Part shown: positions 14,594-53,461 of the stretch, one piece after another
How the letters are laid out: each line of letters opens with the position of its first letter
Numbering within the stretch: the stretch's first letter is position 1
NCBI GenBank assembly: GCA_905178155.1
Contig: CAJINV010000024.1
Location: 352,715-416,714, forward strand
Direction of reading: 5' to 3'
DNA: 64,000 nt
Origin: Amoebophrya sp. A120
Taxonomy: Eukaryota; Protista; Dinoflagellata
Made by a program: the position numbers and the translations under genes
The notes under the pieces: model-generated
The model's database searches: none
Told to the model about the DNA's origin: nothing
The model's input: the letters and a program-made list of their open reading frames with translations, nothing else

Positions 14594-16612
14594 ATGTTTG
14601 GATTTAGGATTTTGCGGAGGTCGGGTCAACGGGTGGTTGCCCACACCAAGCACGTGCACCACGATGCCTTACCAACGATCAAACCTGTGTTGCCAGCAGG
14701 ACCCAGCATTGCTGTGCTGGAACACGGTCGAAAAAAAAACCTGACCATCGGGGACGGGATTGTATCCTGAGTAAAAACGTCCTCACATCACCAGATCTGT
14801 CATGCATATTTGCATGCCCAGAACAGCTACAGCACGAACACCTCTCGCGCGGCTCCCTATGGGACGAGGCATTTTGTAAGTAGTCAATTTGCGAGTCCGG
14901 GTACCGCTAAGGGAGTGAATTTGTGATGCGTCCGGAATAGTTCTCAGGCACGACTAGGGTATGTACTTATGTGAGTCGCAAAAGTTCGAGGCAGCTTGGC
15001 TTGCATCGTTCCTATCTTGCCTCTGGGTTGGGTGCGTTTTTACTCGGGATACGGAGAAAAGGTGCAGCCCGCGACAGTGGAGGAAGAGATTGTTCCGAGC
15101 GCGACTGTATCAAATGCAAAAATGTCTGTGTCTGGAAGGATTCGAGGTTTGTTATGCACATTTTGCATGACTCCTGGTCCTGAACCTGATGTCTGTGAAG
15201 CATGCCCTAGCATCACAGATTTTGTGAGGTGGGCTTCCTGATGCCTATACCGCATGACAAATGCTCTTTCTGTGTAGCAAAACTTGGACCCTCGTCTTTG
15301 CTGCTCATGCAATACAGATTTTTTTAGAATCCAAATGCAGCATCACGAGTTCCAACTTTGCAGACCCAGACATTTTTGCGATCCATAGACTGAGTCCACA
15401 GCGACGACGACCCCAGGGTCATCTAGAGTCGGAAGCAAAATCACCACGAACGAAGATGAGAAATCCAGCACGGCTGGGGCGGAGCGTGTGCGGAAAACTG
15501 TGACGTTTAGCGACCATGGGGCTGAGGTGCGGGAGTACGTGCCGGAGTCCGTAAAGGATATCCTGTGTAAAATCGCAACCCACGCCAGCATCGAAATGCA
15601 AATTGGACTTGTTCGAGACAAAGCCGGAAGTTTTGGCTGTTGAGCAACGATGCACATGATCTTCTTGTCTTGTGATTACAGCATGACACAAATTCCAGAA
15701 CCTCAGTAGTTACCATTTCTCAAAACCGTTTCGGGCATCATGTAGATTTGCATGACAAAAACTCATCTGGGGTGGGCCTCGCTTTTACTCAGGATAAAGT
15801 AGCAGTCCTTTGTGGCACAGCTGCTGTGCGAACTGCAATGGAGAAATACTACTCTCCACAACCTGCAGAAGGCAGCTGCCCGCCGTGCCAAAAAAAAGAT
15901 CCGCAGCCGGAACCACAGGCTGCGAAAGGCGACGATATACCGCGAGGACTGCCTCCGAGTCATGAATGCCGGGTGGCGGCGTGCCTACAACTACGTGGAG
16001 ACGAGGGACGAGGACGACAGCGATTTTTGCGCCAAGGCGGAACAGCATGACACGCCCGACGAACCGGGGCCGGTGCAAATGGTCGTCCAAAAGAGCTGTA
16101 GGATGACCATGCTCAAAACAACCGCGTCCCCTTCTTCACCTACACGACCCGCTTTGACCGCCAAGACCGTGACTTCGGTTGCGGAGACGTACTTGCCAGG
16201 AAGAAAGGGTGAGGGAACTTCTACAACCACTCCAGGTCCCTCGCAGGAGGAGGAGTCCTTTTCCGTTGCCCAGGAAGGTGGTGGTTCTACGGGATCGGAA
16301 GAAACGGCGCTGCTGAGGAAAAGCAAAAGGCTGGTGGTCCGCAAGAGCAATGCTGCAGAGGATCTTGCGCAAGAACAACTGGGAAGATGCGAACCCGGCA
16401 TCGGCGGATTCTTCTCGTACCTAAACTCCTTTCCTGCTCCGCCGCCCCTGGCCGTCCCAGCCGCACCCCAGCGTCGCACCACGGTCTTACCGCAGGGAAA
16501 CTACGTCCTGCGCGTGCGGCGGAGCGCCGTCGACACTTCGGTGTACAGGCTGGGAACGACGACTGCGCAGCCCCCGCGCCCGTCGTGGTGGGATTTGAAT
16601 CTTGGGTACTAG
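14594..16612 (+). CDS. Hypothetical protein; 4 exons separated by 3 introner introns; KTVTF (RVxF-like) motif
   Basis: Exons ~14594-14761, 15056-15106, 15392-15557 and 15801-16612 join in one open frame (GDGI|EKVQ...SAT|ESTA...SVK E|QSFVAQLL) when each element plus 5 nt is removed; start codon uncertain. Confidence 0.7.
14763..15051. mobile_element. Introner (tatcctgagtaaaaacg family)
   Basis: TIR tatcctgagtaaaaacg / cgtttttactcgggata; direct repeat decayed. Confidence 0.85.
15108..15387. mobile_element. Introner (tatcaaatgcaaaaatgtctgggtctgg family)
   Basis: ~30-bp TIR; perfect 5-bp direct repeat gactg. Confidence 0.95.
15559..15796. mobile_element. Introner
   Basis: TIR tatcctgtgtaaaa / ttttactcaggata; direct repeat aagga/aagta. 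Confidence 0.9.
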
Positions 16613-17164
16613 GACCGGAGGTTGCCGAAGTTGCAGTCACTCCCCCAAGATCATCCTCGTTGCAGATCTACTTCGCTCTACTACCCTTTTTACAGTGTAA
16701 TCAAAGTCAAAAGTAACCATTTTCCGCACCAAGAAGAACAAAGGACTGAACAATTACACAACCAAAGACGAAGATGAACATCAAAAGCTGAGATTTACTT
16801 TGAAAAAATACTGTCACACAAAGACCAAGCTAGCCTGCTGTTTAAGCCCCTAGTACCGGATTGAATTTTCTCGTTCACCTTCCCGCCCATGATTCGAATC
16901 ATGAGAACGACGAGCGCTGACTTTTTGACGACGATTTTTCCTTTTCCTCTACCGCACTCACGAAGATATTTCTACCAGTTTGATACAGCTCTATACGGTT
17001 ACATCTAGTACGCATTGACACAATTTTCCGAAGTTTTTGAAAGCCACCTGCTAAGTGACACCCGCTTTACAGCGCAGCAGCAGTCGAGCTGCAGTTGCTC
17101 GTCTTATAAGATTTTTTGAATTACTGCCGCACTTTGTGCGTTGTCGAGCCACCGTGCTCCATCA

Positions 17165-17333
17165 GAGAAAAAGAAATGAAAAAAAAGGAAAAAAAAGAAA
17201 AGAAAATGAAAAAAGTAAAAAAAAGGAAAAAAATGAAAAAAGTAAAAAAAAGAAAAAAACGAAAAAAGTAAAAAACAAAAGAAAATCAAAAAAATATAGG
17301 GTTTAGGTGTTTGGGAAGGGTTAGGGTTGGGGG
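17165..17333 (+). repeat. A-rich tract followed by degenerate telomere-like repeats
   Basis: ~130 bp of A-rich sequence, then tagggtttaggtgtttgggaagggttagggttggggg. Confidence 0.55.
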
Positions 17334-17372: not shown

Positions 17373-17624
17373 TATCAAATGTAAAAATGTCTGGGTCTGG
17401 AAGAATGCAGGTTTGTCATGCTTGTCTGGCATGACTCTTAAATTTGTCATGCACGCCACCAAAGAGACCCACTTTTCTGTCATGCAGAAACGCAGTCTGT
17501 CATGCTGAATAGGCAACACCTAGAAGCTCAGAAACGTGTCATGCTGAGCCAGCACTTGTGGCTCCCTCCTGATACGCCACCCAGCATCACAAGCTTCCAG
17601 ACCCAGACATATTTGCACTGCATA
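17373..17624. mobile_element. TAT...ATA element, same subfamily as 61525-61766; host gene not evident
   Basis: TIR tatcaaatgtaaaaatgtctgggtctggaag / cttccagacccagacatatttgcactgcata; perfect direct repeat ttatt. Confidence 0.95.
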
Positions 17625-18868: not shown

Positions 18869-18898
18869 TGCAGCTCCTACTTCTGTCCAAACACTAAC

Positions 18899-20433
18899 GC
18901 GTTGCCAGCAACGGTCGGCGCAAATACCAGAGCAAATGTGGCAGGTGCTGCGAGGAATATGTGGCCGTCATCGCGCGTTCGAATGGCGACGCCGGGTACA
19001 AATGACGATAAAGCACGTTGCTATCCACGGCAAATTTGTCTCGGTTTGAAAACTTGTCACGCTAAATTTCGGAGGATTGGAATACTTGCAATGGCAGTCA
19101 AGCATACGAAGTTTTTGGAACATCTTGCTCAGATGCCCAGCACGCATTACAGATTACGTTTTCACATCCACGTCAATAAGGAAGCTGTTCATTTGCTGCT
19201 GACGCAACACAGATTTCATTTTCAATCAGGAATGCAAGACACGCATTAATATTCAGACTCAAGCAAATTTGCAGTTGATAGTCGCGAGCAACGGCTATAA
19301 TATCGTGGCGACAAATGAATCCTACGGATGAACGCCGGCGCATTCGGCCTGCAGGCTGGTACCGTTTTATTCCCGTTTGGAGTCAATAGTGACAACCCCT
19401 CGGAAGGTGGAGTTGCGTTGCAAGCAACGCATGATAATTCCGGGGTTTGGTTACCGAACGTTGCCAGCAACGGTTTTTGGGCCCTCGCGTCATTGCTCCG
19501 GCTAATAGCACAGGATGTGTGATATTCGAAAATGACACGGTCAGCAGAATCAAGAGCGACAGTCCCCGGCGGCCACAACTGCGTTGCGAGCAACGTGGGA
19601 GGAGGGCGCGGGTAATACCCACGATGAGGAAGCAGCGCGTTGCCAGCAACGACTCTTCCTGCCCGTCGCTGGTACATGGAATCCCGGTCTGCAGTTGGAG
19701 GCGCAAGATCCGGTCTGCAGTTGGATTCTTCTTGGGACTCCGGTGGAGCAGCGTTGCCAGCAACGCATGATAATACCCGGGCTGCGGAACAAGACGTCGT
19801 TGCCAGCAACGGTTGTTGTGTCCTGCTTCCGTCGTCACTACTCCAGTGAAAATAACGATCAAACACTGACGCGTTGCCAGCAACGGACGGTGCAAATAAC
19901 AGAGCAGATTCGTGTGGCAGGTACCGCGAGGAAGATGTTGATGTGCTTCAAACCTGCACCAACGAGAGGCGCTGCCAGCAACGCTAATTGCGGCTGCGAA
20001 GTTGGCGTCACAGGATTTCGGCCTTTAGCGAGTGGGCTACGGTGGTCTAACCGCGGAAACACGACAGCTCGTTGCGAGCAACGACTGCGCAGCGGCGCTG
20101 TGAAGAAAAGGTACTTTCCGCGACGGCAAAACGATTCTACGAGGCACATCATCCGGTCTGCAGTTGCATTTTTCTTGGGAGTGCGGTGTCCAGGATGCTG
20201 ACGGTCCGTCCCCCTGTGAAGCAGCGTTGCCAGCAACGCATGATACTACCGGGGCTGGGTAACAAGACGTAGTGGCCAGCAACGGTTCATGTGCCCTGCT
20301 TCCCTGGTCACTGCTCCGGTGAAAACGAGGAATGTAAACGTGATTTTTTGCGGTCCGGCTTCATCCTGCAGCGTCGTGCAAAAAGCGAGAACAATGTATC
20401 CGGTGGTAAAAAGAAACGCGTTGCGAGCAACGC
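18899..20433. repeat. Array of ~13 dispersed 14-bp palindromes CGTTGC-NA-GCAACG
   Basis: Copies at about 18900, 19416, 19459, 19582, 19637, 19752, 19798, 19872, 19970, 20070, 20225, 20271 and 20419. Confidence 0.8.
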
Positions 20434-25080: not shown

Positions 25081-26800
25081 CTGGACGCGCTTGGCGCGCG
25101 AACAGTTCTCCATGGGAAAACCACCCCACAGTGCCCCGACCTGCATCGCCGACGGCTGGACGCGCTTGGCGCGCGGACAGTCAGCCCAGGACACCAATTG
25201 CGAGAGAGTAGCAGCCCAGGGAGCAGCCGCGACCACGACTGGACGCGCTTGGCGCGCGGACAAACAGGCAGCGACGCGCTCGAAGGAACCGCAACAGCAC
25301 CAGGACCCGCAGTGGTGGCTGGACGCGCTTGGCGCGCGGACAGAAAGTCAAGGACGCCTCAGCCACGAGAGAGGAACAGCCCAGGGAGCAGCCGCGGCCA
25401 CCACTGGACGCACTTGGCGCGCGGACAGACAGCACTAGGACCTGCCGTGACGGCTGGACGCGCTTGGCGCGCGGACAGTCAGTCAAGGACGCCAGAGCCA
25501 CGAGAGAGGAACAGCCCAGGGAGCAGCCGCGACCACGACTGGACGCGCTTGGCGCGCGGACAGACAGGCAGCGACGCCTTCCATGGGACCGCGACAGAAC
25601 CAAGACCCGTCGTGACGACTGGACGCGCCTGGCGTGCGGACAGTCAGTCACGGAAGCGGGCAACTGGAGAGCAACAGCCGAAGGAGCAGCTGCGACCACA
25701 ACTGGACGCGCTTGGCGCGTGGACAGTCGGTTAAGGACGCCAAAGCCACGAGAGAGAAACATCCCAGGGAGCAGCCGCGACCACGACTGGACGCGCTTGG
25801 CGCGCGGACAGACAGGCAGCGACGCCTTCCACGGGACCGCGACAGAACCAGGATCCGCCGCGACCACCACTGGACGCGCTTGGCGCGCGGACAGTCAGGT
25901 AAGGACGCCAGAGCCACGAGACAGCAACAGCCTAGGGGGCAGCCGCGACCACCGCTGGACACGCTTGGCGCGCGGATAGACAGTCAAGGACGCTTTCCAC
26001 GGGACCGCTATAGCACCAGGACCCGCCATGACCGCTGGACGCGCTTAGCGCGCGGACAGACAGCCAAGGGCGCCAGACCTACGAGAGAGGAACAGCCCAG
26101 GGAGCAGGCGCGACCACCACTGGACGCGCTTGGCGCGCGGACAGACAGGCAGCGACGCCTCCCATGGGACCGCGACAGAAGCAGGACCCGCAGTGACGAC
26201 TGGACGCGCTTGGCGCGCGGACAGTCAGTTAGGGACGCCAGAGCCACGCGAGAGCAACAGCCCAGGGAGCAGCCGCGACCACGACTGGACGCGCTTGGCG
26301 TGCGGACAGACAGTCAAGGACGCTCTCCACTGAGCCGCGACCGCACCAGGACCCGCCGGGACGGCTGGACGCGCTTGGCGCGCGGACAGCCAATCAGGGG
26401 CGCCAGAGCCACGAGAGAGGAACAGCCTGGGGAGCAGCCGCGACCACCGCTGGACGCGCTTGGCGCGCGGACAGACAGTCAAGGACGCTTTCCACGGGAC
26501 TGCGACAGAACCAGGGCCCGCCGCGACGACTGGACGCGCCTGGCGCGCGGACAGACAGGCAGCGGCGCGCCCAAAGGAGCCGCAACAGCACCAGGACCCG
26601 CCGTGACGGCTGAACGCGCTTGGCGCGCGGACAGGCAGGCAAGGACGCCAGAACCACGAGACAGCAACAGCCCAGGGAGCAGCCGCGACCACCACTGGAC
26701 GCGCTTGGCGCGCGGACAGACACTCAAGGACGCTTGCCACGGGACCGCGACAGAACAAGGACCCGCCGTGATGGTTGGACGCGCTTGGCGCGCGGACAGA
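25081..26800. repeat. Alternating dimeric repeat (~165 bp = 85+80) with 25-bp core CTGGACGCGCTTGGCGCGCGGACAG, ~22 copies
   Basis: Core counted directly; spacers fall into two related classes. Confidence 0.95.
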
Positions 26801-26922
26801 CAGTCACCGCAACCACGGGACCGCAGACAGAACCAAGACGTGAGGGTACACCGCAACCTCTGCCTGGCGGCAAAGAAGACGTGGAGGTACACCGCGACCT
26901 CCGTTCAGTGGCAACCACGTGG

Positions 26923-27190
26923 TATCAAGTGCAAATATATCTGGGTCTGGATAGATAGAACTTGTAATGCTGCATTTGGATTCCAAAGAAATCTGTATTG
27001 CATGAGCAGCAAAGAGAATGCACTTTTTGCTACGCGGGCAGGGAAATTGTCATGAGTAATAGGCATCCAGAAGCCCTTGCCCTCAAAAACAGTTGTGATG
27101 CTAGGACCTGCATCACAGACTTCACGGGCGATGCAAAATGTGCATGACAAACTGCGAGTCTTGCAGACCCAGACATATTTGCAATCCATA
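26923..27190. mobile_element. TAT...ATA element, inverted relative to 15108-15387
   Basis: TIR tatcaagtgcaaatatatctgggtctgg / cagacccagacatatttgcaatccata; perfect direct repeat cgtgg. Confidence 0.95.
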
Positions 27191-34410: not shown

Positions 34411-34411
34411 N

Positions 34412-39468: not shown

Positions 39469-42400
39469 ATGGTGCTCGACAACAGTCTATCCTGAGTAAA
39501 AACGTGTCTACCCAGTGGTCAAGTTGGTAATTCTGCAACACAAATCTCCAACTTTGGGGAGGTGTGCATGACAAAGACAAGGAGAGGCGCATTGTAAAGA
39601 CGCCTTTTTGTGCTTTGTACAGCATTACGAATCTTCCCAGAACACGACTACAAGCACAAATTCCTCTCATGCGGATGCGCATGACAAATGTTGTTCTGTT
39701 CGTGTTGATGCAAAATTTTGCATGACAACTCCGGGGTGGAGACCACGTTTTTGCGCGGCATACATTCCTTCAGATTGTTCGCGGCTCTTCAGGCTGGACC
39801 AAAAAGCCGTGCTCGTCCGGGAAGACGACTTCGAAGCGTATTTTGGGCCACTCCTGCGATGGGCGGCGCAACAAGCAGAACGGATGAAAAACTTGGATGC
39901 CAACAATGGAGCAGAAGCGGTTTATTGTGCTGCCACCTCAGGAGGTAGTAGTAGCTCAGCAGCAGGAGCATCGTCTACTTCATCTTCTTCCACCCCCGCC
40001 GTACAAGTAGCATCAGCTTCCGCAGAACCGGTAACAGTACCTTTGCTATGAACTACAAAAGTATCGTACTCATGTAAATGCATTACAAATTTTCTCAGCA
40101 TGAGAAATAGAATCTGTAATGCTGATTTGCCTTGACAAGGAAATTTGCAATCCAAGACCTGCATTAATACGATTACGATACTTGTTTTGCACAGCATACT
40201 TGCCACCCTTCCGGGATTTCAACGAGTTTTTCCTACTGAACACCGAACGTGAGGTATCAAAATGAAAAATCCCCCCTCCCCATACTAAAAAGGGATACTC
40301 CTGAAAATTTGTGATGCTGATTTGTGGCCACAAATCGTCTCTGTATTGCATGAAGGCAAGAACTCCAGAGACTCCGCTGCGTTGTGCAGGCAATTTGTAA
40401 TGCTGTAGCGCCTACAGAGGACGTGCCTGCCTTGCTAGGTGCCTACAGCAAAACGCCCCTCCTCAGGCTGCGCGCCTGGCTGCAGTCCTCTACTGCAACA
40501 CAAAGCCGATTTGTGTAGACAAATCCCGCATCACAGATTTCCATTTTGATATGGGGCGGGGGGATTTTTCATTTTGATATGAGAAGGAACGGCGCGCGCT
40601 GGCGCAGCAGCGACGGGAAGCGGCGGAGCAGGAGAAAAAGCGGCTGCTGGGATCCGAGGACGAGAGCGAGGGCGACGAGCCCTTCTTTCCCGTAGTACGA
40701 CGACCGCCGACGAGGAAGATTGAAACAAAACGTCGACCTCGACCGTTGTTGCACCCCGGCGGAGGTGAGGAGAATCATGAGGACAAGGTCGAACGTCTGC
40801 GGAGGGAGCAGGAGGAGAGAGCGGCTCGAGATAAGGCAATGTGGGATCCTGACAACCCGCTGAATGAGATGGCTTATCTGCAGTCGCACCAAGCGCTCGT
40901 TTTCCACAAGAGCGCCGTTGTGACGATCGGGCCAGACGAGGAGGCCCAGGACTTGGCCGTTGCCGCCATGGATGCGCAGAAGGGCCTGGTGGTGAAAAAT
41001 CTGGCTTCGGGTTTGGGTCTGTCCGTTCTGATGTCGCAGACGGAAACGCAGGCGAAGAAAGAACAGCAGACCGAAGAGGACGAGGACCTACACCCGGTCG
41101 TGAAGACCTTGATACAAGAAGCGATAAGGAGCAACCCGCGCGTCATCGTTGACGAATTTGCAGCTTGGCACGCATCAATGCGGAGGGAATCTGGGGAGTC
41201 GGAGCTGTGTGCGGTGAATGATTTCTTTTCTCCTGGGGATTTTGCAAAAATGTCGGACCGTGAGTACGCTGCAGTGGCGCTGCAGCGGGCTCAGGACGTG
41301 AAAACGTTCTGTGACCAGGTGGAAGCGTATACCACACTATACGAGCGGACGCGGACCGAAGCGGACGACAGGCGCAGGGAGGAAAAAGATCAGTTGAATG
41401 ACCACTATCTTAATCAACATCAGTTGGGGCTAGGCCGCGATCCTTTTCACAAAACGAAAAGTGGTCCTTCGCCGCTGACGAAGCTCGCGGCACAAACTGT
41501 GGAGCAGCTCCCGCCGGGATTCATACCCTTTGTCGAGTTCGAGCTGATGCGGCTGGACCAGGGCCCGGTCGTGCCCGGCGTCGACAAGCAATCCGCCGAG
41601 TGCTTGGTGGAGACCTTGCTCCTGTCACCCGACGAGGAGCACTTCGAGACGGGCCGTCACCGGGCCCAGGTCCGCGCGACGTTTGAAGGCGTCTTGAGCC
41701 GACGCGCGATGACCCAGCTCGGGAAGTTTAAAATCAGTGCCGGAGAGCAATTTTTGCAGCACCTCGGCCTTCCACACAATCTCCTAGAACACCGCCTGTC
41801 GCCCTTTGTCGAGTCGGAGCGGAACGATTACGGAGTACCACGGAAAGACAAGCAGGCGCAAATGTGGGTACGTCCGTCTAGGGTGATCGCAGAAAGCGGA
41901 CTATCCTACGAAGACGATCAACTGTCGATCACATCAACGCCTTTCCCATCCGTCTGGACGGCCGAGCGGACGGCGCACGAGCAGTGGTGGCTTTCCAACT
42001 TTTCACCGGCAACCGAGGACGAGCATTTCTACGGCTTTCGAAAGCAGCACAAACTCTACAAGGATTGGAAAATCGCAAATTCACCAGACCCAGAGGAAGG
42101 AAAAGTATCAAACGACCGAGCCAGCTGTCTGCCTTCCGTCGAAGGGTCGGCGCACGATACGCTCTCGTTCGCCTTTTCAACGAGCATTTCCGGCGGAGAA
42201 GAGGGCATCCTGAACATCGGCATGTTCAAGCGGGAGCGGGAACCACCAGGCACGGCAAAATCTTCGCGTGCGACCAGTTACAGGGATTTTTCATGCTCCA
42301 CCAAGCGGGGGCGGGACACTAAGCGGTATGAGCGACTTTGGCACGACCCGCTTGATTTTTTCTTCCTGCCGAACGCCATCGACACGCGTATTGACCGAGA

Positions 42401-44257
42401 GAAGATATGTCCCGAGGATCCGTCGCGACAACGCTGGGGGGTATGGGTCAGGGCTCGACACTACACCGAGGAATCCGAATCACCATCGCCAGTATTTGGA
42501 ATGTCATGGAGAAGACGTGGCCCAAGCGAGCACGTGAAGGATGATCCCACACGGACACGGACCGAAGAGTTCTACTTCGCGACGGAGGAAGAAGCAGATG
42601 CGTTCGTGGCCGAGTTCGAGATCTGCTGCAGAATCGCACGCGAGTGCCGATTATCAAATGCAAAAATGTCTGGGTCTGGATCTGGAAGGTTGGAACTTGT
42701 CATGCTAAATCTGAATCAGGCAAAAAACTGTGTTGCGTGATTGCCAAAAGTTGTGCACTTTTGACCTGATCGAGAGGCAGTCTCTCATGCAGGATAGCCA
42801 TTGGAAAGGTTTCGCAGAATCTGTCTTGCTATGTCCTGCATACCAGACCTCATGGGTTATGGAAAACCTGCATGACAAGTCTGGTAATCTTCCAGACCCA
42901 GACACTTTTGCAATCCATACCGATACGCGAAGCCGGTGGTAGAGATGATGAGCATGTACGAGCACGTCAAGAACAAAACCGTATCGTACGAAAAAAGTGT
43001 TTCACTGTAAGGGAAAACAAAGCTAAAAATCCATTATTTTGTTGCATGTGTAGCATGACAAACACTTCTTCGCAGATGCATTTTCTGCATTACAAGTTTA
43101 CAGTGAAGCAATTTTTTCTTGCGATGAACCGGAGAGGACAACTACTGTTCCTGGTTTACCCACGTCTACCCCGACAAAGCTGGTGAGAAAAAGTGCAGCC
43201 GCATCTCCTTCATTCTCAACGAAGAAGGATTACCACTGCTCCTATCCACTGCGAATATCATTTCCGGGTCTGGAAACCTGTGATGCTGATGCATCGGGGG
43301 ATGGGGATAATTGCAACACTTATATTTGGAGCCACGAAGCATGACAACTTTATTATTTTCATATAACGCTCTCTGAACCTGAAGCGACGTAGCACGCATG
43401 ACAAGTATGTGTTTTTGTATCACAGATGAAAGTTTGCTTTTGCCTGTCACGGAGAAGAACAGAGATTCTGCTGGCCGCATGCCCGACACGCAATACAAAC
43501 TGAGCTTTAATATTCTTTCCAGACCCAGACATATTTGCAATGCATAGTGCCCCACCGAGACCGAGGAGCTCGACCAAGACCAGGAAGCCGCAGAGGAGGA
43601 GCCCAGCAGCGAAAAGCCGCTCGCTACTCCCGACCTCAACACTGCTACGTGGGCCGAGGTCGCACGCGTCGTCTTTGCGCACCGCCTGAAGCAGCAGGGG
43701 CGATTATCAAGAAGAAAAGTCCCCCCTCCCCATACCAAAACGGAGATCTGTGATGCAGATTTGTGGTCACAAGTCAGCTTTGTCATGCTAGGAGGAAAGA
43801 CGTGCGGAGTGTAGTGCTGGCTGGCGTGGGAAAGCCTCGCGCCTTCAGCATGACAGAGAGCAACTGGAAGTGGGAAACAGCATGACAGATTGCCTGCAAA
43901 CGAGGCCACAAATGCGGCTCTTGGCCTTCTGGCATTACAAGTCGATTTGTGTACTCAAATACAGCATCACAAATTTCGTTTTCGATATGGTGGGGGGGCT
44001 TTTCCCTTTTGATAGCGATCGGAATCCTGGTGTCCTTCCGTGCGAGACCCGATCCGGTTTTATTGCGTGTTTGCCGAGGATATGCATTGCAAATATGTCT
44101 GGGTCTGGTAGTAGGGTGTAACTTGTCATGCTACATCTGGATCGTGGCAAAATTTGTGTTGCAAATGACAAACCTAGCACTCTTCCAGACCGAGACATTT
44201 TTGCATTTGATAAAGTATGAGAAGGAAGAAGGTGATGGTGAGGAAGTGCAACAATGA
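39469..44257 (+). CDS. Large hypothetical protein (gene A), 9 exons and 8 introner introns; paralog of 59195-63242
   Basis: Exons 39469-39486, 39767-40045, 40203-40253, 40584-42650, 42924-42980, 43131-43241, 43551-43703, 44019-44079 and 44217-44257 form one open frame; FRDFNEFFLLNT, TWAEVARVVFAHRLKQQ and RDPIRFYCVFA match the paralog; 5' start uncertain. Confidence 0.85.
39488..39762. mobile_element. Introner
   Basis: TIR tatcctgagtaaaaacgtg / cacgtttttgcgcggcata; direct repeat cagtc/cattc. Confidence 0.85.
40047..40198. mobile_element. Introner (short)
   Basis: TIR tatgaactacaaaagtatcgta / tacgatacttgttttgcacagcata; direct repeat tttgc/cttgc. Confidence 0.8.
40255..40579. mobile_element. 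Introner (cccccctccccata family)
   Basis: TIR tatcaaaatgaaaaatcccccc / ggggggatttttcattttgata; direct repeat tgagg/tgaga. Confidence 0.95.
42652..42919. mobile_element. Introner
   Basis: TIR tatcaaatgcaaaaatgtctgggtctgga; perfect direct repeat ccgat. Confidence 0.95.
42982..43126. mobile_element. Introner (short)
   Basis: TIR tatcgtacgaaaaaagtgtttcactgtaa / ttacagtgaagcaattttttcttgcgatg; perfect direct repeat aaccg. Confidence 0.9.
43243..43546. mobile_element. Introner
   Basis: TIR tatccactgcgaatat...gggtctggaaa / tttccagacccagacatatttgcaatgcata; direct repeat gctcc/gtgcc. Confidence 0.85.
43705..44014. mobile_element. Introner (same family as 40255)
   Basis: TIR tatcaagaagaaaagtcccccc / gggggggcttttcccttttgata; perfect direct repeat gcgat. 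Confidence 0.95.
44081..44212. mobile_element. Introner (short, internally deleted)
   Basis: TIR tatgcattgcaaatatgtctgggtctgg / ccagaccgagacatttttgcatttgata. Confidence 0.9.
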
Positions 44258-45559
44258 ACCAGTTGGAAGATGAACTCAACTTGACGTGGCGAGGAAAAAG
44301 TAACAAAATATAAATGTGCAAACCCAAATCTTTTCTATTCAAAGAAGAAAACAGCAAAAGTTATGTCGAAGACTATGATTATGAGTCTATATGTCGTGTA
44401 ATAAAATTTCGTCGGAAGCTAGTTGAATACGAATACAATTTCGACGAGAGCCAAAAACTTATATACTGTATGAAATTTGTGTTTGATGGTGACAGGAAGT
44501 AGAGCGCTGTACCAAGATACGATAAATCGGCTCATAAGTATTCCTTCGAGTGATCTTGACCGGCCTTCGTCGACCCTCGAACACACGCACCTCAATCAAA
44601 GAGCAAGGATTTAAGCTTTTTGATACAGCGCTATGCTTGATGGAAGCGGCATGTGTTTCTGGGGAGTGGAGGAATGGGCCAGCCACAGTTCTTTCACTAG
44701 CTTTGTGTTCGTGAAAAGAAGTCTATGTTTCGCTTTTTTCTTCGATCGATTGAAGACGAGTGCAAGCACTTCCCAAGGAAGTACTCAAGTAACCAGATCC
44801 ACTTTTTCGACAGAGATGTTCGCTCGGATCGATTTTTTGTTGTTGTTTTTTCCTGTTTCGTCTTTTTCTCGATGTTAGATAGCAAGGAGCTGTAAGTGAG
44901 CATTCTTCTCGACCTTGAATCTTCATCAATATGAAAATGACAACTCTCCAACCCAAATGACAGTGATAGCGAGTTTTTTTTTTGTGTCCCTTTAGGGGGT
45001 AAAGAAAGCAAGCTATTATCGTAATACGTACCACTCCTGTGCCTTCATTTTCCTCTTGTGTCCAAAAATAATTTGTCCACCTTTGTACTCATAAACCACC
45101 ACGAAACTTTTATTCCTCAAGCTCAAGCACCAACTTCGTGAAGAATTTGCGATACACTGTACTGCAGAAACGCATCCACTCCTCAAGCTTTCCTTTACTG
45201 CTGTGTACCAAACTATGTTTCTCACGTTATCTAGTCTGCAAAACAAACCCTGAACAAATAATAGCCTTGCATCACTATCTACGTCATTCAAATACACTTC
45301 TATTGATACAAGGAGGTTGAGTTTGAGAAGGAGGACTCGATTACTTGTCTTTTCTTGAAGAAGTTTCGTCACTACATTACGTACGATTTTAGTTTTACAT
45401 TGATAAATATCTCTAAATTCATCAATACGGCGTTGCTCATCTGTGATATCTACCAATTTGGTGTTTATATGGTGCTATTATTATTTCAATTCTACTTCTG
45501 GTAGTCGTAGTCCACAAATAACCGCTATTTCCTCATCAAATCCACGTTCCTCATCGGCA

Positions 45560-48500
45560 ATGGCTGCTGCTCTCCCTCCGGCTGGGGGCAAGAAAGCTTC
45601 TGCCCGAACGATGGGCCAGATTTCCACGGAATTTCACAAGCGTGAAAGCGAATTTACCACTTTAGAGGGCACAAGATTCTGTCCCTGGGTCGGAAAAATA
45701 ATCATCGACGACAAGAAGAAGAAGCCAGAGGAACTCACCATCCTGGCTCGGGGGGACGCCAAGCTCGCCGTGGAACACCTGTGCAGCGACGGCGCATTCG
45801 GCAAGGTTGTCCGCCTGTGCATGAACCCCGATTCCGACCGTAACAGGAAAGTGCCCGCGGCCCGAAAGAAAAATCTAGCAGTGAAGGTGATCTCCAAGTG
45901 GAACGTATCCATTGAGTGTGTGTCCGGGTCTCGAAACTGGACTTGCACCCCTTCGATGTCTTGTAGCTTTTGCACTACAATCGAATGTTGCTGAACTGCA
46001 TAAAGAAGGCGCATTGCATGGTACCATTAAGTGGCGTGCGCAACCTCCCTGATGGGTGTATACCTATCTTCCCGCATGAGAGGTGGTCACCACCACTCTC
46101 TGCTGGTGAAAAAAGGGTGGGCAGCTGCTCTCGGTACGCTTGCAATGCAGACCTCAGTTGTGATGTACAAGTAGTGACGCGTTGCCAATAACAAGACAAG
46201 TCGCAGATGACCCAGACACATATGCAATGCATAGGCCGAACAGGACAAGGTCGAACAGTTGCGGCAGATGCGCGAGGCGGCGATCAACCTGCAGTTCGAA
46301 AACGGCAAGGAGGGCATTACTCCATGCTTCGGTGTCTTGTTCAGCGTGATTTTATGCAGTGCAAAGGCGTCTGGGTCTGGAAGGGAACAGATAAGCACAA
46401 TTTGTAATGCTGTTTTTCCCTCTGGCGCAGGGGAAGTGTCTGGCATGCACACAGAGCACCTCAATTTCTGTTCCTCATGCTCTTCTTGCATGAGAACTGC
46501 CGCTGCCGAATGGCGCAAACTGTGTGCTCCTTGCTGACCACTACTTACGCAAGGCAAGTTTCTCTCTCTTTCAAAATCAGTCTGAGACGTTTGCATGATC
46601 CTTCGAGCCCCAGGTACATTTGCAATGCATATCATAGCAACATTCTCATGTTCATCATGCCCCAGGCGATGATGAGCTGGGTGAAATTATCCCGAGGAAA
46701 AATGTCCCCATCCCACATTTGTGATGCAAGTCTGGATGCCCAAGAGTTCGGCATGCTCGTATTTGCAGAAGCGGAACACTTTGTGTACGCGGCTTCTACA
46801 GCCGTGCGCGAGTTCTACGCAAAGTGTCCAAATTTGATTTGTTATGCGAACTTTACCAGGGGTTCGAATCTCGATTTGTCGAGGAGCTTGCCCACCTTGA
46901 CTATGGGATGGTTACGTTTTTCCTCAGGATGCCGCTTTGACGCGAAGAAGCACACCCAGGCGTTCTGCGCGTTTACGGTCCACGTTTTGAATGGCTACAG
47001 GTACTTATTTTTTTACGACTTGATGGTGGGTGTTTCTGAGCGCGATGTTTGACGTGCGTTGTAGCATAATGGAATTATGGAAACTGGAGCAAAACGGCGC
47101 TTCATTCCGCAAGAACGACACGAGGATCTACAAACAAACTTTATTTTTTAATCGCAAGCAGGTACTACACGTCGCAAGGGCTTCAGCACCGTGACATCAA
47201 GGTATCATAGTCAAAACTGCCCCACATAACCCATATGGATGGTTGGTCTGTTTTTAGTACGGTTGGTCTGTGAATGTTAAGTAGGTGGAAGCAGGATTCG
47301 TTGACATTTCTCGTGATAAAGATTATCTTCAACAACAAGTTTTATTGATCTTCCTACTCTCTTCTACACGACCTGTGGGACCTGGTAGAGATTTTTTGGA
47401 TAACAAAAGTTCTTGCTTTTGCTGCAGAACGAGTTCGAGGCATCAGTGTGCATACTATAGCAGAAGACAAGTCGCATATGAGGCGGATGGCAGTTTTGAA
47501 TGTGATAAATTCCCAGCAATATGTTGCTTCGGAGTGTATCGGACCTCTCTGAGCTGCCACGGCACTACGTTCCGGTTGATCACTATCAGAAAAAATCCGG
47601 ACCATCGCAAGTACTACCGATGCAGGTTTTGCATTTAAAGATCGGTTCTGGGGCGTCACAGGTATATACAAATGTCGCAGAAACAGAAACACAATCGCCA
47701 TTGGAAACAAGGCTGACTGTGATGTGCCTCTACGCCCGAGAACACGTTTTGTCTTGCAAAAACGGATAAGTACTCAAAAGTGGTTGCGATGATGTTTTTT
47801 TCTTGCATACTGAGGAGTTTTACGGGTTCGTCGCATGCTATTGTACAGTAACTGGTCGGCTCTCATCGATATTCGACAACACTTGCAGCGTCGCGTGTAG
47901 TCATGTTGAAAGAGAGGTATAAGTGGCGTGAAGCGTAAGCCTGTGCATCAGTTTGCATGATTGAAACGGCACTTTCGCAGCAGGTGCACCCACACAGTAA
48001 TTTCCCTATCACTGTCGAAACAGAAAAATACGGCCGGCTGTTCTCCCTGCATACGCGCATCTGCGACTGGGGTTCGGCGAAGCACTTAACCGAGGAGACG
48101 GGCGAAAGTGGACAGCATAGTCCGCGCGGCAGGGTGGGCATTAGGAAGTGGTGAACTTTACCTGCCACACCAGCAGAGGCCTCATTGAAGCCGGGCAAAA
48201 GTAGTGTGAATCTATGCAGACAACTCTGTTGATTCTGATTTTTTTTTTCAAAATTTCTTCGTACAACTTTTTCTTTCCTTCTGATTTCGGATTTTTTTCA
48301 TTTCCTTTTTCCAAAAGAAGCTAGATGCGTCATGTTGTATCTTTTTTGCGGGATGAAAAGTCTTGAACCTCCTATCTGTTATGCATGCCGACGTCTTTAT
48401 AATTTTTTTGCATGCTCTTGTTTGCTATCGTGCAGGCAAAGTTTACACGTTCATAGAAGCCGACAACTACGCCTCCGTGGATTTTCGGATTCATTTCGAC

Positions 48501-51500
48501 GAAGAGGTGGAGTTATCTTCGGATGGCGAGAAGGAGGAAGAAGACGCAGATATCCTATGTCAAAACGTCCCCATCCCATGGCTCTCATGCAAATCTGCAT
48601 GCTCGAAGGATTTCTCATGCGGAGCGTAATCAGAGGCATTTTCTAGTCGTATTTTAATTTTGGGATTTGTCATGGTCCAATCGGCATACTATGTTCCAAA
48701 TTTGTGATGCAACTGAACTAGCGAACAAGCAGGATGACATTTACTAATGCGAACTTGTAATGCGCAGCAAGGAGTAGGAAATAAGCTGGGTCTTTTGTCT
48801 AGCGGATTTCCCCTCTTGACTCTGGGGTGGGGACATTTTTGCTGAGGATAGAAGAAGAGGAAGAAGTAGACCCCGATTTGCCGGAGGCCGTATCATCTGC
48901 AAGTATGTCTGGGTTCCCTGAAAGTAAGATTGTAAAGTTGTAATGCTGATCATTTTGCACCAGAAGGGGGAAAATCTGTCTTGCATAGTCAGCACGAGAT
49001 GCGCACTTTTTGTCTCCTGGACAGGGCGTTTCTTATTCAGGTCAAGCCTGAAGAAGCCTCCGCACAACGCGATCCGCTCTCAGTGCATTTCAGACCTTCA
49101 GGCAGACCCAAAAACAGCATGACAAATTAGCTCTGCATTCATCTTCCAGACCCACACCAGACGTTTGCATTTGATACGCGGGGGAGCAGATGGAGTACAA
49201 CCCCGTCCTGCTGGGTGACGCGCCGATTCCGGACGATGCCTGCGCAGTGTGCTTGGAAAAAGGAAGCGACTTGTTCAGCTTCGGACTGATGTTCCGCGAA
49301 ATGTATCTCGCTATGATCGAAGAACAATCCTTCCGCGCCGCAGGGTTCCTGGTGCGTTTGCAACTCCATCCGAAAATTTTCACCCCGGGGTGTGGGTGCG
49401 GCCGCAAAAGCACACGGGCAGGAACCCGGCGGCGTGGAAATTTTTCGAAAGAATATTTCGAATCAACATGGAGTCGAAGTATAACGAGGCGCACGCTTAC
49501 ATACTCCACCAGCAGGGCATCGACCTGAACAATCTCAAAATCCGCTCGCAAGAGGAATACAAGATGTTCATGTACCAGTTCTGGCACTTTCACTGCAGCT
49601 TGTTGGATCCCAAGGGCGTGCCGGAAGAACACAAGGACTACATCTACATGGATGTTCTGCGCAAATTCGGGCCAGGCAACAAGGGACTGGAACCAAAATT
49701 GAAAAAGGGAATCGAAGGTACACTATAAAGTTGTTTTTGCTGTAGTTCTTGAATGGAGTCAGATCACAGGTGGAGTTTGCAAAAATGCCTTGTAGAAGGA
49801 GGTCTTGGTGTGTGTCGTGTATTGTGCTGTGGTTCAGGACGCTGGAGTTTCTGGCGATTTTTGTGTTTGGGTGTTTACGATAAAAGATCATGGAATCGAA
49901 AATAAATGCCAATACAGCGTTCCTCAAAGAATCCAAGGCGGCCAGTGCGAAAAAAGATGGTCCCGACTTCCACCGCCTCTGCGTGCAGTTGACCAAGTTA
50001 TCCTGCGTAAAAAGCGTCCTTGTCAACTACACAGAGAAGTCGTATGTTATTGGTTCTTGCATGCCCCTCCGAATAACCGGAACGTGTGTCATGCAACACT
50101 CATGAAAATCATATTAATTGCGACGTTTTTTGGACATTTGTCATGCAAAGTTTGGGATCAGAACTAGGTGAAAACCCGAACTCCGTGTAGCCGCATGTAT
50201 GACCAGAAGCTGTGTGGGACGTCCTTGATGGCAAATTTGCCCGACTGGCCTCGGCTCCAAATAGCGGTCATCCCGTGCATCTCTATACAGCTTCTCGACT
50301 GAAGGACGCTGCACAATCATGAATCAAAGGCGACATGGACGTTTTTAGGCAGGATAGTAATGGGACCCGGCCGTGTATGCAAAGAAAAAAGTGTTACAGC
50401 TACATATTGTGTTGCAAAACATACAAGACAGGCGATCTCTGCCATGCGCAAAGTGCTTGCGAGTCTCCTTTTGTGTGTGTTTTGCCTTATGATCTCTGCA
50501 TTGCAAGTCCTCTCCGTCATGCGAGGCAAATTTGTGATGCTGAATTCACTACAAATGTGTAACTCTAAATGTAACACTTTTTTCGTTGGATATCGTACGG
50601 CACAGCGGATTGACCGATGATTTCCTCCGCGAATGCCGCATTTTATCGAAACAGCGTTTCGAGGAAGCTGCCTCATCGGGGTCCGAGTTGATGTTCGACT
50701 TGAAGGCGCCGCTGCCAGTGCCGGAATCCATGGCGCCCAGGATTCAGGACAACGTCAATGACTTGCTCGGCCCGCTGCTAGAGGACGCCGATGAGGACTG
50801 CGATAGGGTGGAGGCCCGCGAAGACCTCAAGGGAAAGGAAACCGAGAAACGTCAGCTGTTAGAGGAAATCGAGGAGAAGGTCAAGGAAGAGACGAGCACA
50901 AAGATCGCCAAGAACCTCCATATAATGCTGTACAACGAGAGGCTATCCCAATGAAAGAGCTAGTTCCCCTGACACAAACCGAGACTTGTGATGGGAGATG
51001 TGTGTGCGCGAATCATCTTCTCTGGCGAGCAGACAGCAGGATGCTTCTGTGATGATTTCTTTGTGTAACAAGTTCAATTTGTCATGCACAGCGTGGCAGG
51101 AAAAGGAAAACCTTCGCCGGTCATACTGACTGACGAGATACGTTAGCTTTTCTGACTTCACGCGAGAAGAAGTTGATTGGTGTACAATAGAAATTGATGG
51201 GTACTTCTACCATCAATTTTGCACACAGATGACGCCCGGAGAATTTCAGTTTTTTCAGTTTGATAGACACCGCTCTTGGACGACGCAGGCAATTTTACGG
51301 GCGAGGTGAAGCCGAGGAAGGCACCCGGCTACGTGGCCGAGATGCAGCGCAAGCACGCCGCTTTGGCCCCCGAGTTCTGGGGCACCGCGTACACCAGCAC
51401 GGGTGATGTGGTATCACATCATCTGACAAAGCTAGTTTACTTTTTCAATGACTTCATATGCTCACATCTATACGTAGAAATACATTCATTTCTGGCGTGG

Positions 51501-53461
51501 AACATTACATTCATTTCTGGTTGTGCTAGACGGATATTTTTTCTACAAATCACATAGCGAAGAAGATAAGGAGGTATTTTTTGTTTCCCAGGTGGAGACG
51601 ATGACAGAAGAACAGCGTGCGGCGTTCAAGGACAAACGACCTATCAAAATGCGAGAGGCTTCCCACACCATTTCTCATCTCAAAGTCAATCCGCATCACC
51701 TGTTCTGCATTGAAAATTGCACCCACCGATACGAAGAGAAATTTGCCCACGTGAAGATCAATCCACGTATCATTTTGTGATGCTTCCCCGCAGAAGATGC
51801 TGCTTCGTTTCATGTCATGTTCGATTATGGTGCAGAGGGTTCTTGCAGCAGGATAAATTCGGATCCAAATTTCCTCAATCCCAACGAGATCGGCGAGAAC
51901 GGCCGAGAACGTAGTCCGAGGCGCAATGCAGGTAAATTCTGTTGCGTTCGCTGCAGACCAGAAACCGAACATTGCTTTTAAATTTCGTGAGCTGATGGAT
52001 TTATTTTCACGTTGCGACTTGTGATTGTGCCACAAATCTGGCGTTCTTCGTGCATGAAGACAGTATACGAAAAGTTGACAAATGATCCAAAATCTGCATA
52101 CCACAGGCTTAAACAACAACCAGTTGAACCTGCTCGCTGATGTCGATGATATCGACGATGTCGACGCTCTGGCGCAAAATGTCGACGCCGACACAACCGT
52201 CCTGATCACCGTGAACGGCAACAGGAAGATATCCAATACAAAAATGCGTGGCGGTGCAATTTTTTGGATAAGATTCACTTGCTTGCGGCATGACAAACCG
52301 GCTCGAGAAGGGAATTCAACTACTATGCCCACCATTGCTAAGTTGTCTTTTCTGTTTCTTTGGCAGGGCAGGAGATGAAATGGTCTTGCGTGACAGGCTC
52401 TGTCGCCACAAATTTGCACTGAGCATTTTTTTTTTTTGGATAGCGTACGATCCAGGATGTGCTCAACGACTACGAACCGAAACACGGCTTTCCCGGCAAC
52501 GGCAAAAGAGCACGGTATCAAGTGCAAAAATGTCTGGGTCTGGAAGGTTGCAACTTGTGATGCTGTCTTTGGAAGGTAAAAACAATCTGTATTGCATGAC
52601 CAGCCAGGCGAGTTCAGTTTGTGCTACACGGAGTGGGCGTTTCTCATGCGGAATACGCATCAGAAGGCCCGTTAAAAATCTATGATGCTAGGTCATGCAT
52701 TACAGCCATCATGGGTTATGCAAGATATGCATGACAGACTTGGCAATCGTCCAGACCCAGACATTTTTGCACTTGATACACGGACGGCGGAGACCAAAGA
52801 GCACTGGGACGTGATACGGCTGCGTGTCGTGCCGACGCCGGATGGCGCAGGAGCCGCCGATCCGACGGGTAACATCGAGCGCAACCGTATCCTATGTAAA
52901 AACGCCCCCACCCCAAGGTCAAGATGGAAAATCTGCTAGTCTTTCACGCTTCGGCCCAGGGCATCACTGTATTTAGCTATTATGGCCGCATCTAAAATTG
53001 ATATTGAACATCAGACTCCATCAAAGCATGACAAATTCCAATGCGCCTTCTTTGGAAAGTGTCGCTTATCTTCAGGAAACTGCGCATGAGACACATCTTC
53101 AGGGTGAATATGGAAAATTGCATGATAAACTTGTCGTGGTAGGAACATTTTTACTGAGGATTGACCGAAAGAACTGGACGAAGCACTGGTTGCCAAACAA
53201 CCCGCTGTTAGTTTACGGGACTCTCAAGCGTTACACCAGTGACTGTATACATGAATGATATTGTAATTGTGCAAGACTACCTCTACCAAAATAATCTGAT
53301 GATGAGTGAAAGGGCTAGGCTTGCGAGTTGCTGTTGCAGGCTTGGCAGTGATTCTATTGCTACCTAGCGCATCCTCGAGCGCACATCGCACGATGTACAT
53401 TGAGTGGTCGGGTGGTTTCACGGTCGCATTGATTCTGTCTGCATCGCAAAAAACTATGTAG
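45560..53461 (+). CDS. Divergent Ser/Thr protein kinase with long C-terminal extension; at least 12 introner introns plus several GT-AG introns
   Basis: Spliced motifs in order: DGAFGKV, LAVKVI, MREAAINL, IMPQAMMS, HRDIK|PSNMLL, RICDWGSAK, SDLFSFGLMFREM, LTK|WDPAV|RHS. 3' end and a few internal junctions unresolved. Confidence 0.88.
45906..46233. mobile_element. Introner
   Basis: TIR tatccattgagtgtgtgtccgggtc / gacccagacacatatgcaatgcata; direct repeat gaacg/ggccg. Confidence 0.85.
46353..46631. mobile_element. Introner
   Basis: TIR tatgcagtgcaaa / tttgcaatgcata; direct repeat decayed. Confidence 0.8.
46688..46931. mobile_element. Introner (stop-free, in frame)
   Basis: TIR tatcccgaggaaaaatgt..catccc / gggatggttacgtttttcctcaggatg; removal restores kinase spacing between hinge and helix E. 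Confidence 0.8.
47203..47507. mobile_element. Introner splitting the kinase catalytic loop
   Basis: TIR tatcatagtcaaaactgcc / ggcagttttgaatgtgata; lies between the HRDIK and PSN codons. Confidence 0.9.
48551..48850. mobile_element. Introner
   Basis: TIR tatcctatgtcaaaacgtccccatccc / ggggtggggacatttttgctgaggata; direct repeat gcaga/gaaga. Confidence 0.9.
48891..49176. mobile_element. Introner
   Basis: TIR tatcatctgcaagtatgtctgg / ccagacgtttgcatttgata; direct repeat ggccg/cgcgg. Confidence 0.85.
49999..50356. mobile_element. Introner
   Basis: TIR tatcctgcgtaaaaagcgtcc / ggacgtttttaggcaggata. Confidence 0.9.
50376..50592. mobile_element. Introner (same family as 3607)
   Basis: TIR tatgcaaagaaaaaagtgttaca / tgtaacacttttttcgttggata; direct repeat ccgtg/tcgta. 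Confidence 0.9.
50944..51265. mobile_element. Introner (degenerate TIR)
   Basis: tatcccaatgaaag / tttttcagtttgata; direct repeat gaggc/gacac; frame restored. Confidence 0.7.
52230..52442. mobile_element. Introner
   Basis: TIR tatccaatacaaaaatgc...gtgcaattt / aaatttgcactgagcatttttttttttggata. Confidence 0.8.
52516..52778. mobile_element. Introner, inverted relative to 15108-15387
   Basis: Perfect TIR tatcaagtgcaaaaatgtctgggtctgga; perfect direct repeat cacgg. Confidence 0.97.
52888..53162. mobile_element. Introner
   Basis: TIR tatcctatgtaaaaacg / catttttactgaggatt; direct repeat aaccg/gaccg. Confidence 0.85.

What the first reader, a model, noticed from the sequence alone, without database searches (positions are those of the whole stretch)
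15108..52778. The same introner family serves as an intron in both orientations
The interior of 15108-15387 (gcatgccctagcatcacagatttt...catgcaatacagatt...gcagcatcacgagtt) aligns to the reverse complement of 52516-52778 and 26923-27190. Both 15108 and 52516 lie in plus-strand genes and follow the same rule. A strand-specific branch point or pyrimidine tract in the interior is then unlikely to be required, unlike introners that carry an oriented splice site.
Basis: partly seen in the sequence, partly recalled or inferred. Interest (0 to 1): 0.8.

Follow-up and report, generated by a model that had tools for sequence, protein, structure and literature searches.

The report
Reversible transposon introns, one fixed cut
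In the marine parasite Amoebophrya A120, copies of one already published mini-transposon family sit inside genes facing either way and are missing to the base from likely-mRNA contigs in both directions without the usual GT-AG ends, likely because the splicing machine reads the element's mirror-image tips rather than its interior.

Summary
Confirmed. 15108-15387 is the reverse complement of 52516-52778 and 26923-27190 (75% end to end). The window is Amoebophrya sp. A120; the elements are its published TAT...ATA introners. One spliced 3,521-nt contig of a plus-strand kinase-like gene lacks family copies in both orientations (46353 versus 52516 and 48891). All 10 listed element joints remove the element plus 5 nt, and only one cut fits all: 1 nt before TAT, 4 nt after ATA. 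In 154 related loci the family is 37:35 by orientation, with no sorting on the tree. No strand-specific interior motif or pyrimidine bias was found. Two limits: the tips are not read symmetrically (the A at intron -7 varies in 2 of 227 copies, its pairing partner in 18), so a branch-like signal may sit in the inverted repeat; and 15108 itself has no RNA evidence and could also be cut as GT-AG. Either-orientation introners are already known in Aureococcus and Polarella, but with canonical-type ends. This scan noted the same rule and both orientations on other pieces of this genome.

The parts
15108..15387 (-). Family-1 introner, orientation A (opposite to 52516); 5-bp duplication intact; predicted intron 15107-15391 (GT..CT), alternative in-frame GT..AG intron 15107-15388
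   Evidence: no RNA evidence
14400..16612 (+). Region holding the predicted plus-strand host frame of 15108 (406 aa stop to stop after removing 14763, 15108 and 15559; last exon 15801-16612); unknown function
   Evidence: no homologue, no Pfam hit for the last exon
52516..52778 (+). Family-1 introner, orientation B, perfect inverted repeat over the first 20 nt; intron = element + 5 nt (52515-52782, GT..CG under -1/+4)
   Evidence: joint 52510-52779 in X1 and X2 contigs
26923..27190 (+). Family-1 introner, orientation B; host gene uncertain
46353..46631 (-). Diverged family-1 introner, orientation A, in the same gene as 48891 and 52516; intron 46352-46635 (TT..AT)
   Evidence: interior profile 60.5 bits reverse, no hit forward; joint 46350-46635 in X2 contig
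48891..49176 (+). Family-1 introner, orientation B; intron 48890-49180
   Evidence: X1 contig piece begins at 49181 and X2 contig length fits; orientation
45550..53603 (+). Protein-kinase-like gene (817 aa; kinase motifs recognised from recall) with 18 TAT..ATA-type elements and 4 GT-AG introns
   Evidence: model matches X2 contig 8 at 8 of 8 checkpoints, 3,521 nt
42652..42919 (+). Family-1 introner, orientation B
   Evidence: removed in annotated protein P0001
44081..44212 (+). Short family-1 introner, orientation B; intron 44080-44216
   Evidence: X1 contig 2 offsets; P0001 allows -1/+4, 0/+5 or one further shift
40255..40579 (+). Introner of a second family, opposite in orientation to 43705 in the same gene
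   Evidence: removed in P0001
43705..44014 (-). Introner of the second family, opposite to 40255
   Evidence: 65-nt exon arithmetic in X1 contig 2; P0001
39403..44257 (+). Host frame with 8 introners and no GT-AG intron; its product is the annotated A120 protein P0001 (945 aa)
   Evidence: 945 of 945 identical
17373..17624 (+). More distant family-1 relative, orientation B by profile (33.5 vs 17.3 bits), outside any clear reading frame
19022..19280 (-). Distant family-1 relative, orientation A (21.2 bits), outside any clear reading frame
61525..61766 (.). Distant family-1 relative in a plus-strand paralogue of the P0001 gene; orientation ambiguous (pairwise says B, profile 16.9 vs 23.8 bits)

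Best explanation
These are non-autonomous DNA-transposon copies that lie in exons in either orientation and are missing from spliced contigs as the element plus 5 nt, and the cut is likely made by a relaxed spliceosome that reads the tips of the terminal inverted repeat instead of GT and AG. Because the two tips are mirror images, the transcript always begins N-U-A-(U) and ends A-U-A-N-N-N-N whichever way the element landed (shown by sequence). The cut falls 1 nt before the element and 4 nt after it on the transcribed strand (the only register shared by all listed joints), so four bases of the left target duplication and one of the right stay in the mRNA and the original coding sequence is restored (shown where the duplication is intact). 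The U+2/A+3 would act as a donor without G+1, the A at -7 as branch point at a fixed distance from the 3' cut, and the U run 11-14 nt inside the tip as a built-in tract (all inferred). The hairpin may help to bring the ends together but need not be the ruler (inferred). The interior is predicted to be dispensable for splicing and to serve transposition.
For: Both orientations in one spliced contig: 46353 (A) with 52516 and 48891 (B), beside GT-AG introns. The rule alone rebuilds the annotated protein P0001, 945 of 945. In related loci: 37 A vs 35 B among 72 strand-called copies; 22 A vs 21 B inside frames of 200 aa or more, four frames holding both; frame kept by +5 in 88 of 93 elements, A 17 of 18, B 14 of 15; orientation not clustered on the tree, 25 changes vs 24.2 shuffled. 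GT..AG in only 8 of 227. Sequence rather than pairing: A(-7) varies in 2 of 227 against 18 of 227 for its partner U(+4), p 8.6e-4, the only one of 24 repeat positions to differ; 0 vs 7 of 163 under a symmetric detection rule, p 0.016; G.U 188 vs A.C 209 mismatches, no excess of RNA-compatible ones; elements with only 4 of the first 10 pairs intact still fit the contig. Farhat et al. found 83 of 89 spliceosomal proteins, U2, U4 and U6 in A120 and no U1.
Against: No lariat, branch-point or perturbation data. The context of A(-7) matches a yUnAy branch motif (recalled) only in some copies. All three elements folded form hairpins stronger than shuffles (z -4.2, -9.4, -2.5), and a hairpin-guided nuclease would also cut at a fixed lopsided offset. 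A first terminal-blind count, which let in false pairs, showed no asymmetry (9 vs 8 of 137); at the stricter pairing threshold the symmetric count was 4 vs 0 of 141, p 0.125. Only one A-orientation family-1 copy has a direct RNA joint, and it is only 58-62% identical to the B copies. Runs X1 and X2 are RNA by guess and come from one sample.
Confidence: 0.55

Rival explanations
1. Hairpin-guided, spliceosome-independent excision: the paired inverted repeats are recognised as a stem, a nuclease cuts 1 nt outside the 5' arm and 4 nt outside the 3' arm, and a ligase joins the exons, as proposed for SOS splicing and suspected for euglenid nonconventional introns.
For: Explains orientation independence and free terminal dinucleotides directly; strong predicted hairpins; U1 not found in A120; fixed spacers around a paired motif are proven in Euglena; ITR-triggered excision with RTCB exists in animals.
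Against: A(-7) is held while its partner U(+4) changes, breaking the pair; no G.U over A.C excess; the stem base is frayed in many copies, including 15108; SOS splicing is imprecise and leaves indels, whereas every joint here is exact.
Confidence: 0.27
2. A spliceosome uses an interior branch point after all, but one present on both strands: the subterminal GCATnAC motif that sits 43-45 nt from each end.
For: Motif A lies 43-46 nt from the 3' end in 30 hits among 37 A copies and 42-48 nt in 23 hits among 35 B copies; its TnAC core resembles a branch consensus (recalled).
Against: No better conserved at the transcribed 3' end than at the mirror position (122 vs 132 of 227; perfect 105 vs 110, motif A changed in 2 vs 6); absent on the sense strand of the spliced copy 46353; also abundant in a satellite zone, which fits a DNA-binding site.
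Confidence: 0.1
3. The general result holds but 15108 itself is spliced as an ordinary GT..AG intron (15107-15388, leaving one extra codon), or is not in an expressed gene.
For: Its duplication begins and ends with G, creating GT and AG; that reading is in frame, 407 aa; no protein record for the gene.
Against: No listed joint used a shifted AG; elements that start with GT by chance (45906, 47203, 52516, 52888) were removed as element + 5 nt; exons score as plus-strand coding in consistent frames.
Confidence: 0.25
4. The contigs are DNA of a strain or cell state that lacks the elements (empty sites or DNA excision), not spliced RNA.
For: X1 and X2 are RNA by guess only.
Against: The same contigs also lack GT-AG introns; old elements with decayed duplications are removed leaving a hybrid of the two copies; depth is zero over 38200-39261 upstream of the genes; the published gene model agrees.
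Confidence: 0.03

Closest known systems
Introner elements of Amoebophrya sp. A120 (Farhat et al. 2021, PMC7789003; seen: abstract, sections 10, 11, 12, 16, keyword passages, keyword hits in the one supplement held as text; figures not seen)
   Same: Same organism; TAT start, seven variable bases, run of A; 5-bp direct repeats; about 240-nt non-canonical introns; hairpin.
   Different: The paper calls splice sites variable relative to the hairpin. In the passages seen, 'orientation' refers to genes only (3 passages of the 4 main-text hits; 2 of 3 supplement hits seen). Here: either orientation at about 1:1, one register (-1/+4), and a held A at -7.
Either-orientation introners of Aureococcus anophagefferens and Polarella glacialis classes 1, 2, 3, 6, 7, 8, 10 (Roy et al. 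preprint 10.1101/2020.10.14.339549, passages seen; Gozashti et al. 10.1101/2022.06.06.494994, passages seen; the Aureococcus primary paper was not read)
   Same: TIR/TSD elements that create introns when inserted on either strand.
   Different: They use GT/GC/GA and AG carried by the element or recruited from the duplication, so they need suitable target sites; for Polarella classes 6, 8 and 10 the preprint reports a bias to one orientation. Here GT..AG occurs in 8 of 227 and no bias is seen (37:35).
Euglena nonconventional introns (Nomura et al. 2025, PMC12501133; abstract and passages seen; review PMC11282704, passages)
   Same: MITE-like, non-GT-AG, a short complementary motif at fixed unequal distances from the two cuts (N3-CDG / CH'G-N5-6).
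   Different: Different motif and spacers (N1-TAT / ATA-N4); pairing and an exon purine are required in Euglena, while here one tip base is held without its partner; the word 'reverse' does not occur in that paper's main text.
SOS splicing (PMC12779559; abstract and passages seen)
   Same: Removal of DNA transposons from mRNA without GT-AG, tied to terminal inverted repeats.
   Different: Imprecise, many isoforms with indels, spliceosome-independent, needs AKAP17A, CAAP1 and RTCB; here removal is exact and frame-restoring, and the factors were not looked for.

Membership tests
Amoebophrya A120 introner element | Occurs in the A120 genome | tested here: met
   Exon 40584-42650 is 100% identical to a protein named Amoebophrya sp. 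A120
Amoebophrya A120 introner element | Inverted repeat starting TAT, seven variable bases, three or more A | tested here: met
   74 ends of 37 window elements: T71/A74/T72 at 1-3; A 60, 69, 68 at 11-13 (the list was partly chosen by these ends)
Amoebophrya A120 introner element | 3-5 nt direct repeats at the borders | tested here: met
   Perfect 5-bp repeats at the three named copies; 157 of 227 related copies perfect
Amoebophrya A120 introner element | Removed from mRNA with non-canonical ends | tested here: met
   52516, 46353 and eight more listed joints; 15108 and 26923 not seen in RNA
MITE (non-autonomous TIR transposon) | Short, multicopy, TIRs, target duplication, non-coding | tested here: met
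   (128 family-1 copies among 374 elements)
MITE (non-autonomous TIR transposon) | Mobilised by a cognate transposase | not testable with these tools
   No whole genome held; Farhat et al. report no transposase in A120
Aureococcus/Polarella-type either-orientation introner | Creates introns in both orientations | tested here: met
Aureococcus/Polarella-type either-orientation introner | GT/GC/GA and AG supplied by element or duplication | tested here: not met
   GT start 71, AG end 21, both 8 of 227; 0 of 10 listed element joints can be read GT..AG
U2 spliceosomal intron | GT-AG (or GC-AG) ends | tested here: not met
U2 spliceosomal intron | Branch-point adenosine near the 3' end | tested here: inconclusive
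   A(-7) asymmetrically conserved but never shown to branch
U2 spliceosomal intron | Lariat product and spliceosome dependence | not testable with these tools
   Needs lariat sequencing or inhibition
SOS splicing substrate | Imprecise excision with indels | tested here: not met
   10 of 10 joints exact; contigs drop rare variants, so minor isoforms would be missed
SOS splicing substrate | Triggered by pairing of the inverted repeats | tested here: inconclusive
   Hairpins predicted; no G.U excess
SOS splicing substrate | Needs AKAP17A, CAAP1, RTCB | not tested
   No genome to search
Euglenid nonconventional intron | N3-CDG / CH'G-N5-6 signature | tested here: not met
   Signature here is N1-TAT / ATA-N4

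The most novel reading that the evidence does not exclude
A120 runs a splicing code with no terminal dinucleotides: the mirror-image transposon tip is read as donor at the 5' end (N-U-A) and as branch point plus ruler at the 3' end (A at -7, cut 7 nt on), by a U1-less spliceosome or an unknown machine. Any TAT-ended transposon then becomes a scarless intron at any exonic site and in either direction, which would explain tens of thousands of intron gains.
Probability: 0.45. Interest if true: 0.8.

Novelty: new variant of a known kind. Interest (0 to 1): 0.55.

Why it matters
How A120 removes its non-GT-AG introns, apparently without U1, was left open by the genome paper. Orientation independence confines the splice signals to the symmetric tips, and the fixed register plus the held A at -7 name the few bases to test (U+2, A+3, A-7, the pairing). 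It also shows a route to intron gain that needs neither a suitable target sequence nor a lucky orientation. The elements themselves are published and either-orientation introners exist elsewhere, so the gain is a sharper, testable rule rather than a new system.

Tried and rejected
No whole genome is held, so no genome-wide count in A120 and no search for snRNAs, RTCB or transposases. No RNA holder was on record as RNA. Raw-read runs X7 and X8 laid only 38 and 3 partial reads, so strand, retention and efficiency could not be measured. The junction of 15108 was not seen in any run. Two listed joints (42687-43519, 43547-52529) join different element copies and were set aside as contigs of other copies; 23 joints were not shown by the tool. 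Two protein searches with the last exon of the 15108 gene found nothing (the second is weak evidence). Pfam gave no hit for six single exons or frames; Rfam none for the window. Viral contigs held no match to the end pattern. A brute-force search for introns in 47814-48549 gave many solutions; the two elements finally used there (47839, 48142) were picked afterwards, so that stretch is a fit, not a test. A DNA-only test of the register by junction stops and codon score had no power: 23 imperfect duplications, scores 11.6-14.3. A frame scan over registers cannot separate +5 from +2 or +8. The first terminal-blind asymmetry count was contaminated by false pairs and was redone with a symmetric rule. 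One GT-AG intron was entered one base off (49719-49918 for 49718-49917); the length is unchanged. My first idea that 15108 shows a GT-AG rule built from the duplication was dropped once other duplications proved arbitrary. Literature searches showed no paper stating orientation independence or a fixed register for A120; PMC10228655, the one paper holding 'introner' with 'both orientations', was seen only as a listing; subscription papers and figures were not seen.
Full report
Observation. The three named stretches are copies of one element with TAT...ATA ends, inverted repeats of about 30 nt and perfect 5-bp flanking duplications. 15108-15387 matches the reverse complement of 52516-52778 and of 26923-27190 at 75% over the whole length; the same-orientation alignment to 52516 gives 59%. 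With the repeats trimmed off, the opposite-strand match remains (183 vs 26 and 215 vs 35; z 94 and 63). I call 15108 orientation A and 52516 orientation B. A profile of the interior places 46353 (60.5 bits, not in the training set) and weakly 19022 in A, and 42652, 48891, 44081 and weakly 17373 in B; 61525 is ambiguous. A second family pair, 40255 and 43705, is also opposed.

Organism and prior knowledge. One long exon is 100% identical to a protein named Amoebophrya sp. A120. Farhat et al. 2021 (PMC7789003) describe exactly such elements in A120: inverted repeats starting TAT, seven variable bases, a run of A, 3-5 nt direct repeats, non-canonical ends, U1 not found, splice sites 'variable' relative to the hairpin. 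So the elements are published.

Are both orientations spliced? Laying two likely-RNA contig sets and two raw-read runs on 38200-54100 gave 15 displayed joints of 38. Two join different element copies and were set aside, three are GT..AG on the plus strand, and ten skip an element. X2 contig 8 (3,527 nt) runs from 44974 to 54084 and skips 46353 (A) and 52516 (B); 48891 (B) is skipped by length and by an X1 piece starting at 49181. All ten skips equal the element plus 5 nt. Allowing for sliding, the only register common to all ten is 1 nt before TAT and 4 nt after ATA, and one joint allows nothing else. Their ends under this register are arbitrary (GT..CC, TT..AT, TT..GC, GT..TT, CT..CA, CT..TT, AT..GT, GT..CG, GT..CC, TT..TT). 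A model with 18 elements cut at -1/+4 and four GT-AG introns matches the contig at 8 of 8 checkpoints (3,521 nt) and reads as 817 aa with kinase motifs (recalled; Pfam gave nothing on three single exons); the best minus-strand frame is 199 aa. Two of the 18 elements were chosen after a brute-force search with many solutions, so 47814-48549 is fitted. The piece ends 49310 and 49460 and the 14-nt exon between two elements fit the rule without fitting. In the neighbouring gene the rule applied to 8 elements opens 967 codons, identical to the annotated protein P0001 at 945 of 945 residues; that gene holds the opposed pair 40255/43705. The raw-read runs did not cover the stretch, so efficiency is unmeasured, and X1 and X2 are one sample.

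No RNA was seen for 15108. Cutting 14763, 15108 and 15559 at -1/+4 extends a plus-strand frame from 269 to 406 aa; removing the elements alone, or using the minus-strand register, does not. A codon model trained without this gene prefers plus and the matching frames in the three exons scored. No homologue was found. Its duplication also creates GT..AG at 15107-15388, in frame, so this copy cannot by itself argue against canonical sites.

Counting orientations. A strand-symmetric detector recovered 31 of 37 known window elements and gave 3 hits in 242 kb of shuffled DNA. Of 374 unique elements, 227 had a host-strand call by codon score (held-out check: 8 of 12 blocks called, all correctly). Family 1 had 128 members: 37 A, 35 B, 56 uncalled; 46:40 and 25:23 at other margins. 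Because random strand calls would also give 1:1, I checked independently: inside spliced frames of 200 aa or more there are 22 A and 21 B, and 4 of the 9 frames with two or more copies hold both, which needs no strand call. Removal of element + 5 keeps the frame in 88 of 93 elements, 17 of 18 A and 14 of 15 B. Orientation is not clustered on the family tree (25 changes, shuffled mean 24.2; pairs up to 94.7% identical are opposed).

Where are the signals? But the interior has a second inverted motif, GCATnAC, 43-45 nt from both ends; it is not better kept at the 3' end, so it more likely serves the DNA. At the tips one position is asymmetric: repeat position 3 varies in 18 of 227 at the 5' end (U+4) and 2 of 227 at the 3' end (A-7), p 8.6e-4, the only one of 24 positions, a pattern I had noted from five window variants beforehand. 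A symmetric detection rule gave 7 vs 0 of 163 (p 0.016) and 4 vs 0 of 141 at a stricter threshold; a noisier count gave 9 vs 8 of 137. G.U and A.C mismatches are equal (188 vs 209), and elements with 4 of 10 terminal pairs still fit the contig, although hairpins are predicted for the three folded.

Mechanism. Shown: insertion with a 5-bp duplication in either orientation; loss of element + 5 nt from spliced contigs in both orientations; one shared register; no fixed dinucleotides. Inferred: the tip is read by sequence, U+2/A+3 as a donor lacking G+1 and A-7 as branch point with a fixed distance to the cut, by a relaxed spliceosome (0.55). A hairpin-guided nuclease and ligase remains a serious rival (0.27), since it too would cut lopsidedly; an interior two-way branch motif is less likely (0.10).

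Comparison. Either-orientation intron creation is known for Aureococcus and several Polarella classes, but with GT/GC/GA and AG sites. Euglena introns have a proven fixed-spacer code with another motif. SOS splicing removes transposons by repeat pairing but imprecisely. Gozashti et al. 2025 discuss A120 introners as to origin; their one use of 'orientation' is a filter for same-orientation matches. Seven library searches showed no statement of this rule for A120; figures, subscription papers and preprint supplements were not seen. Earlier notes of this scan report the same register, both orientations and the A at -7 on other pieces of this genome; I had the register and orientation result before reading them, and the -7 idea was written down after reading them and then tested here.

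Verdict. Interest 0.55.

Noticed in passing
window 57176-58030: 855-nt element with 81-nt inverted arms, TTAGG ends and a perfect 5-bp duplication, apparently intergenic; its ends fit the TTA-plus-two-purines motif that Farhat et al. give for strain A25 rather than the A120 TAT motif.
   Followed up: no
window 29140-34410 and 28800-38200: 99-bp tandem array, 53 copies at 99% identity, with one open frame on each strand over three units; the zone carries the introners' subterminal GCATnACA motif (63 hits in 9.4 kb, 66 in 10 kb of elements, 7 in the other 44.6 kb). The window's single N is at 34411.
   Followed up: partly
window 39403-44257 and 58833-63239: Two paralogous plus-strand genes (about 33% identity in aligned parts) with different sets of introners, a natural comparison of filled and empty sites.
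   Followed up: partly
window 50361-50374: 14-nt exon between two adjacent introners, present in the spliced contig.
   Followed up: yes
window 51411-51591: GT-AG intron that begins GTATCA, like an introner tip, and has ATA five bases inside its end; possibly an old element that moved to a canonical acceptor.
   Followed up: no
window 3607-3812, 17373-17624, 19022-19280: Elements outside clear reading frames; 3607 has a 6-bp flanking repeat. Whether they lie in untranslated regions or between genes is open.
   Followed up: partly
window 54238-55581 and 25294-26839: 21-bp array (64 copies) and a GC-rich 82/85-bp-type array that forms long plus-strand frames just upstream of 26923.
   Followed up: no
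window 9600-13200: Interleaved duplicated blocks of several hundred bases (e.g. 9700-9990 with 11700-12070; 10670-11180 with 12660-13190), seen by eye.
   Followed up: no
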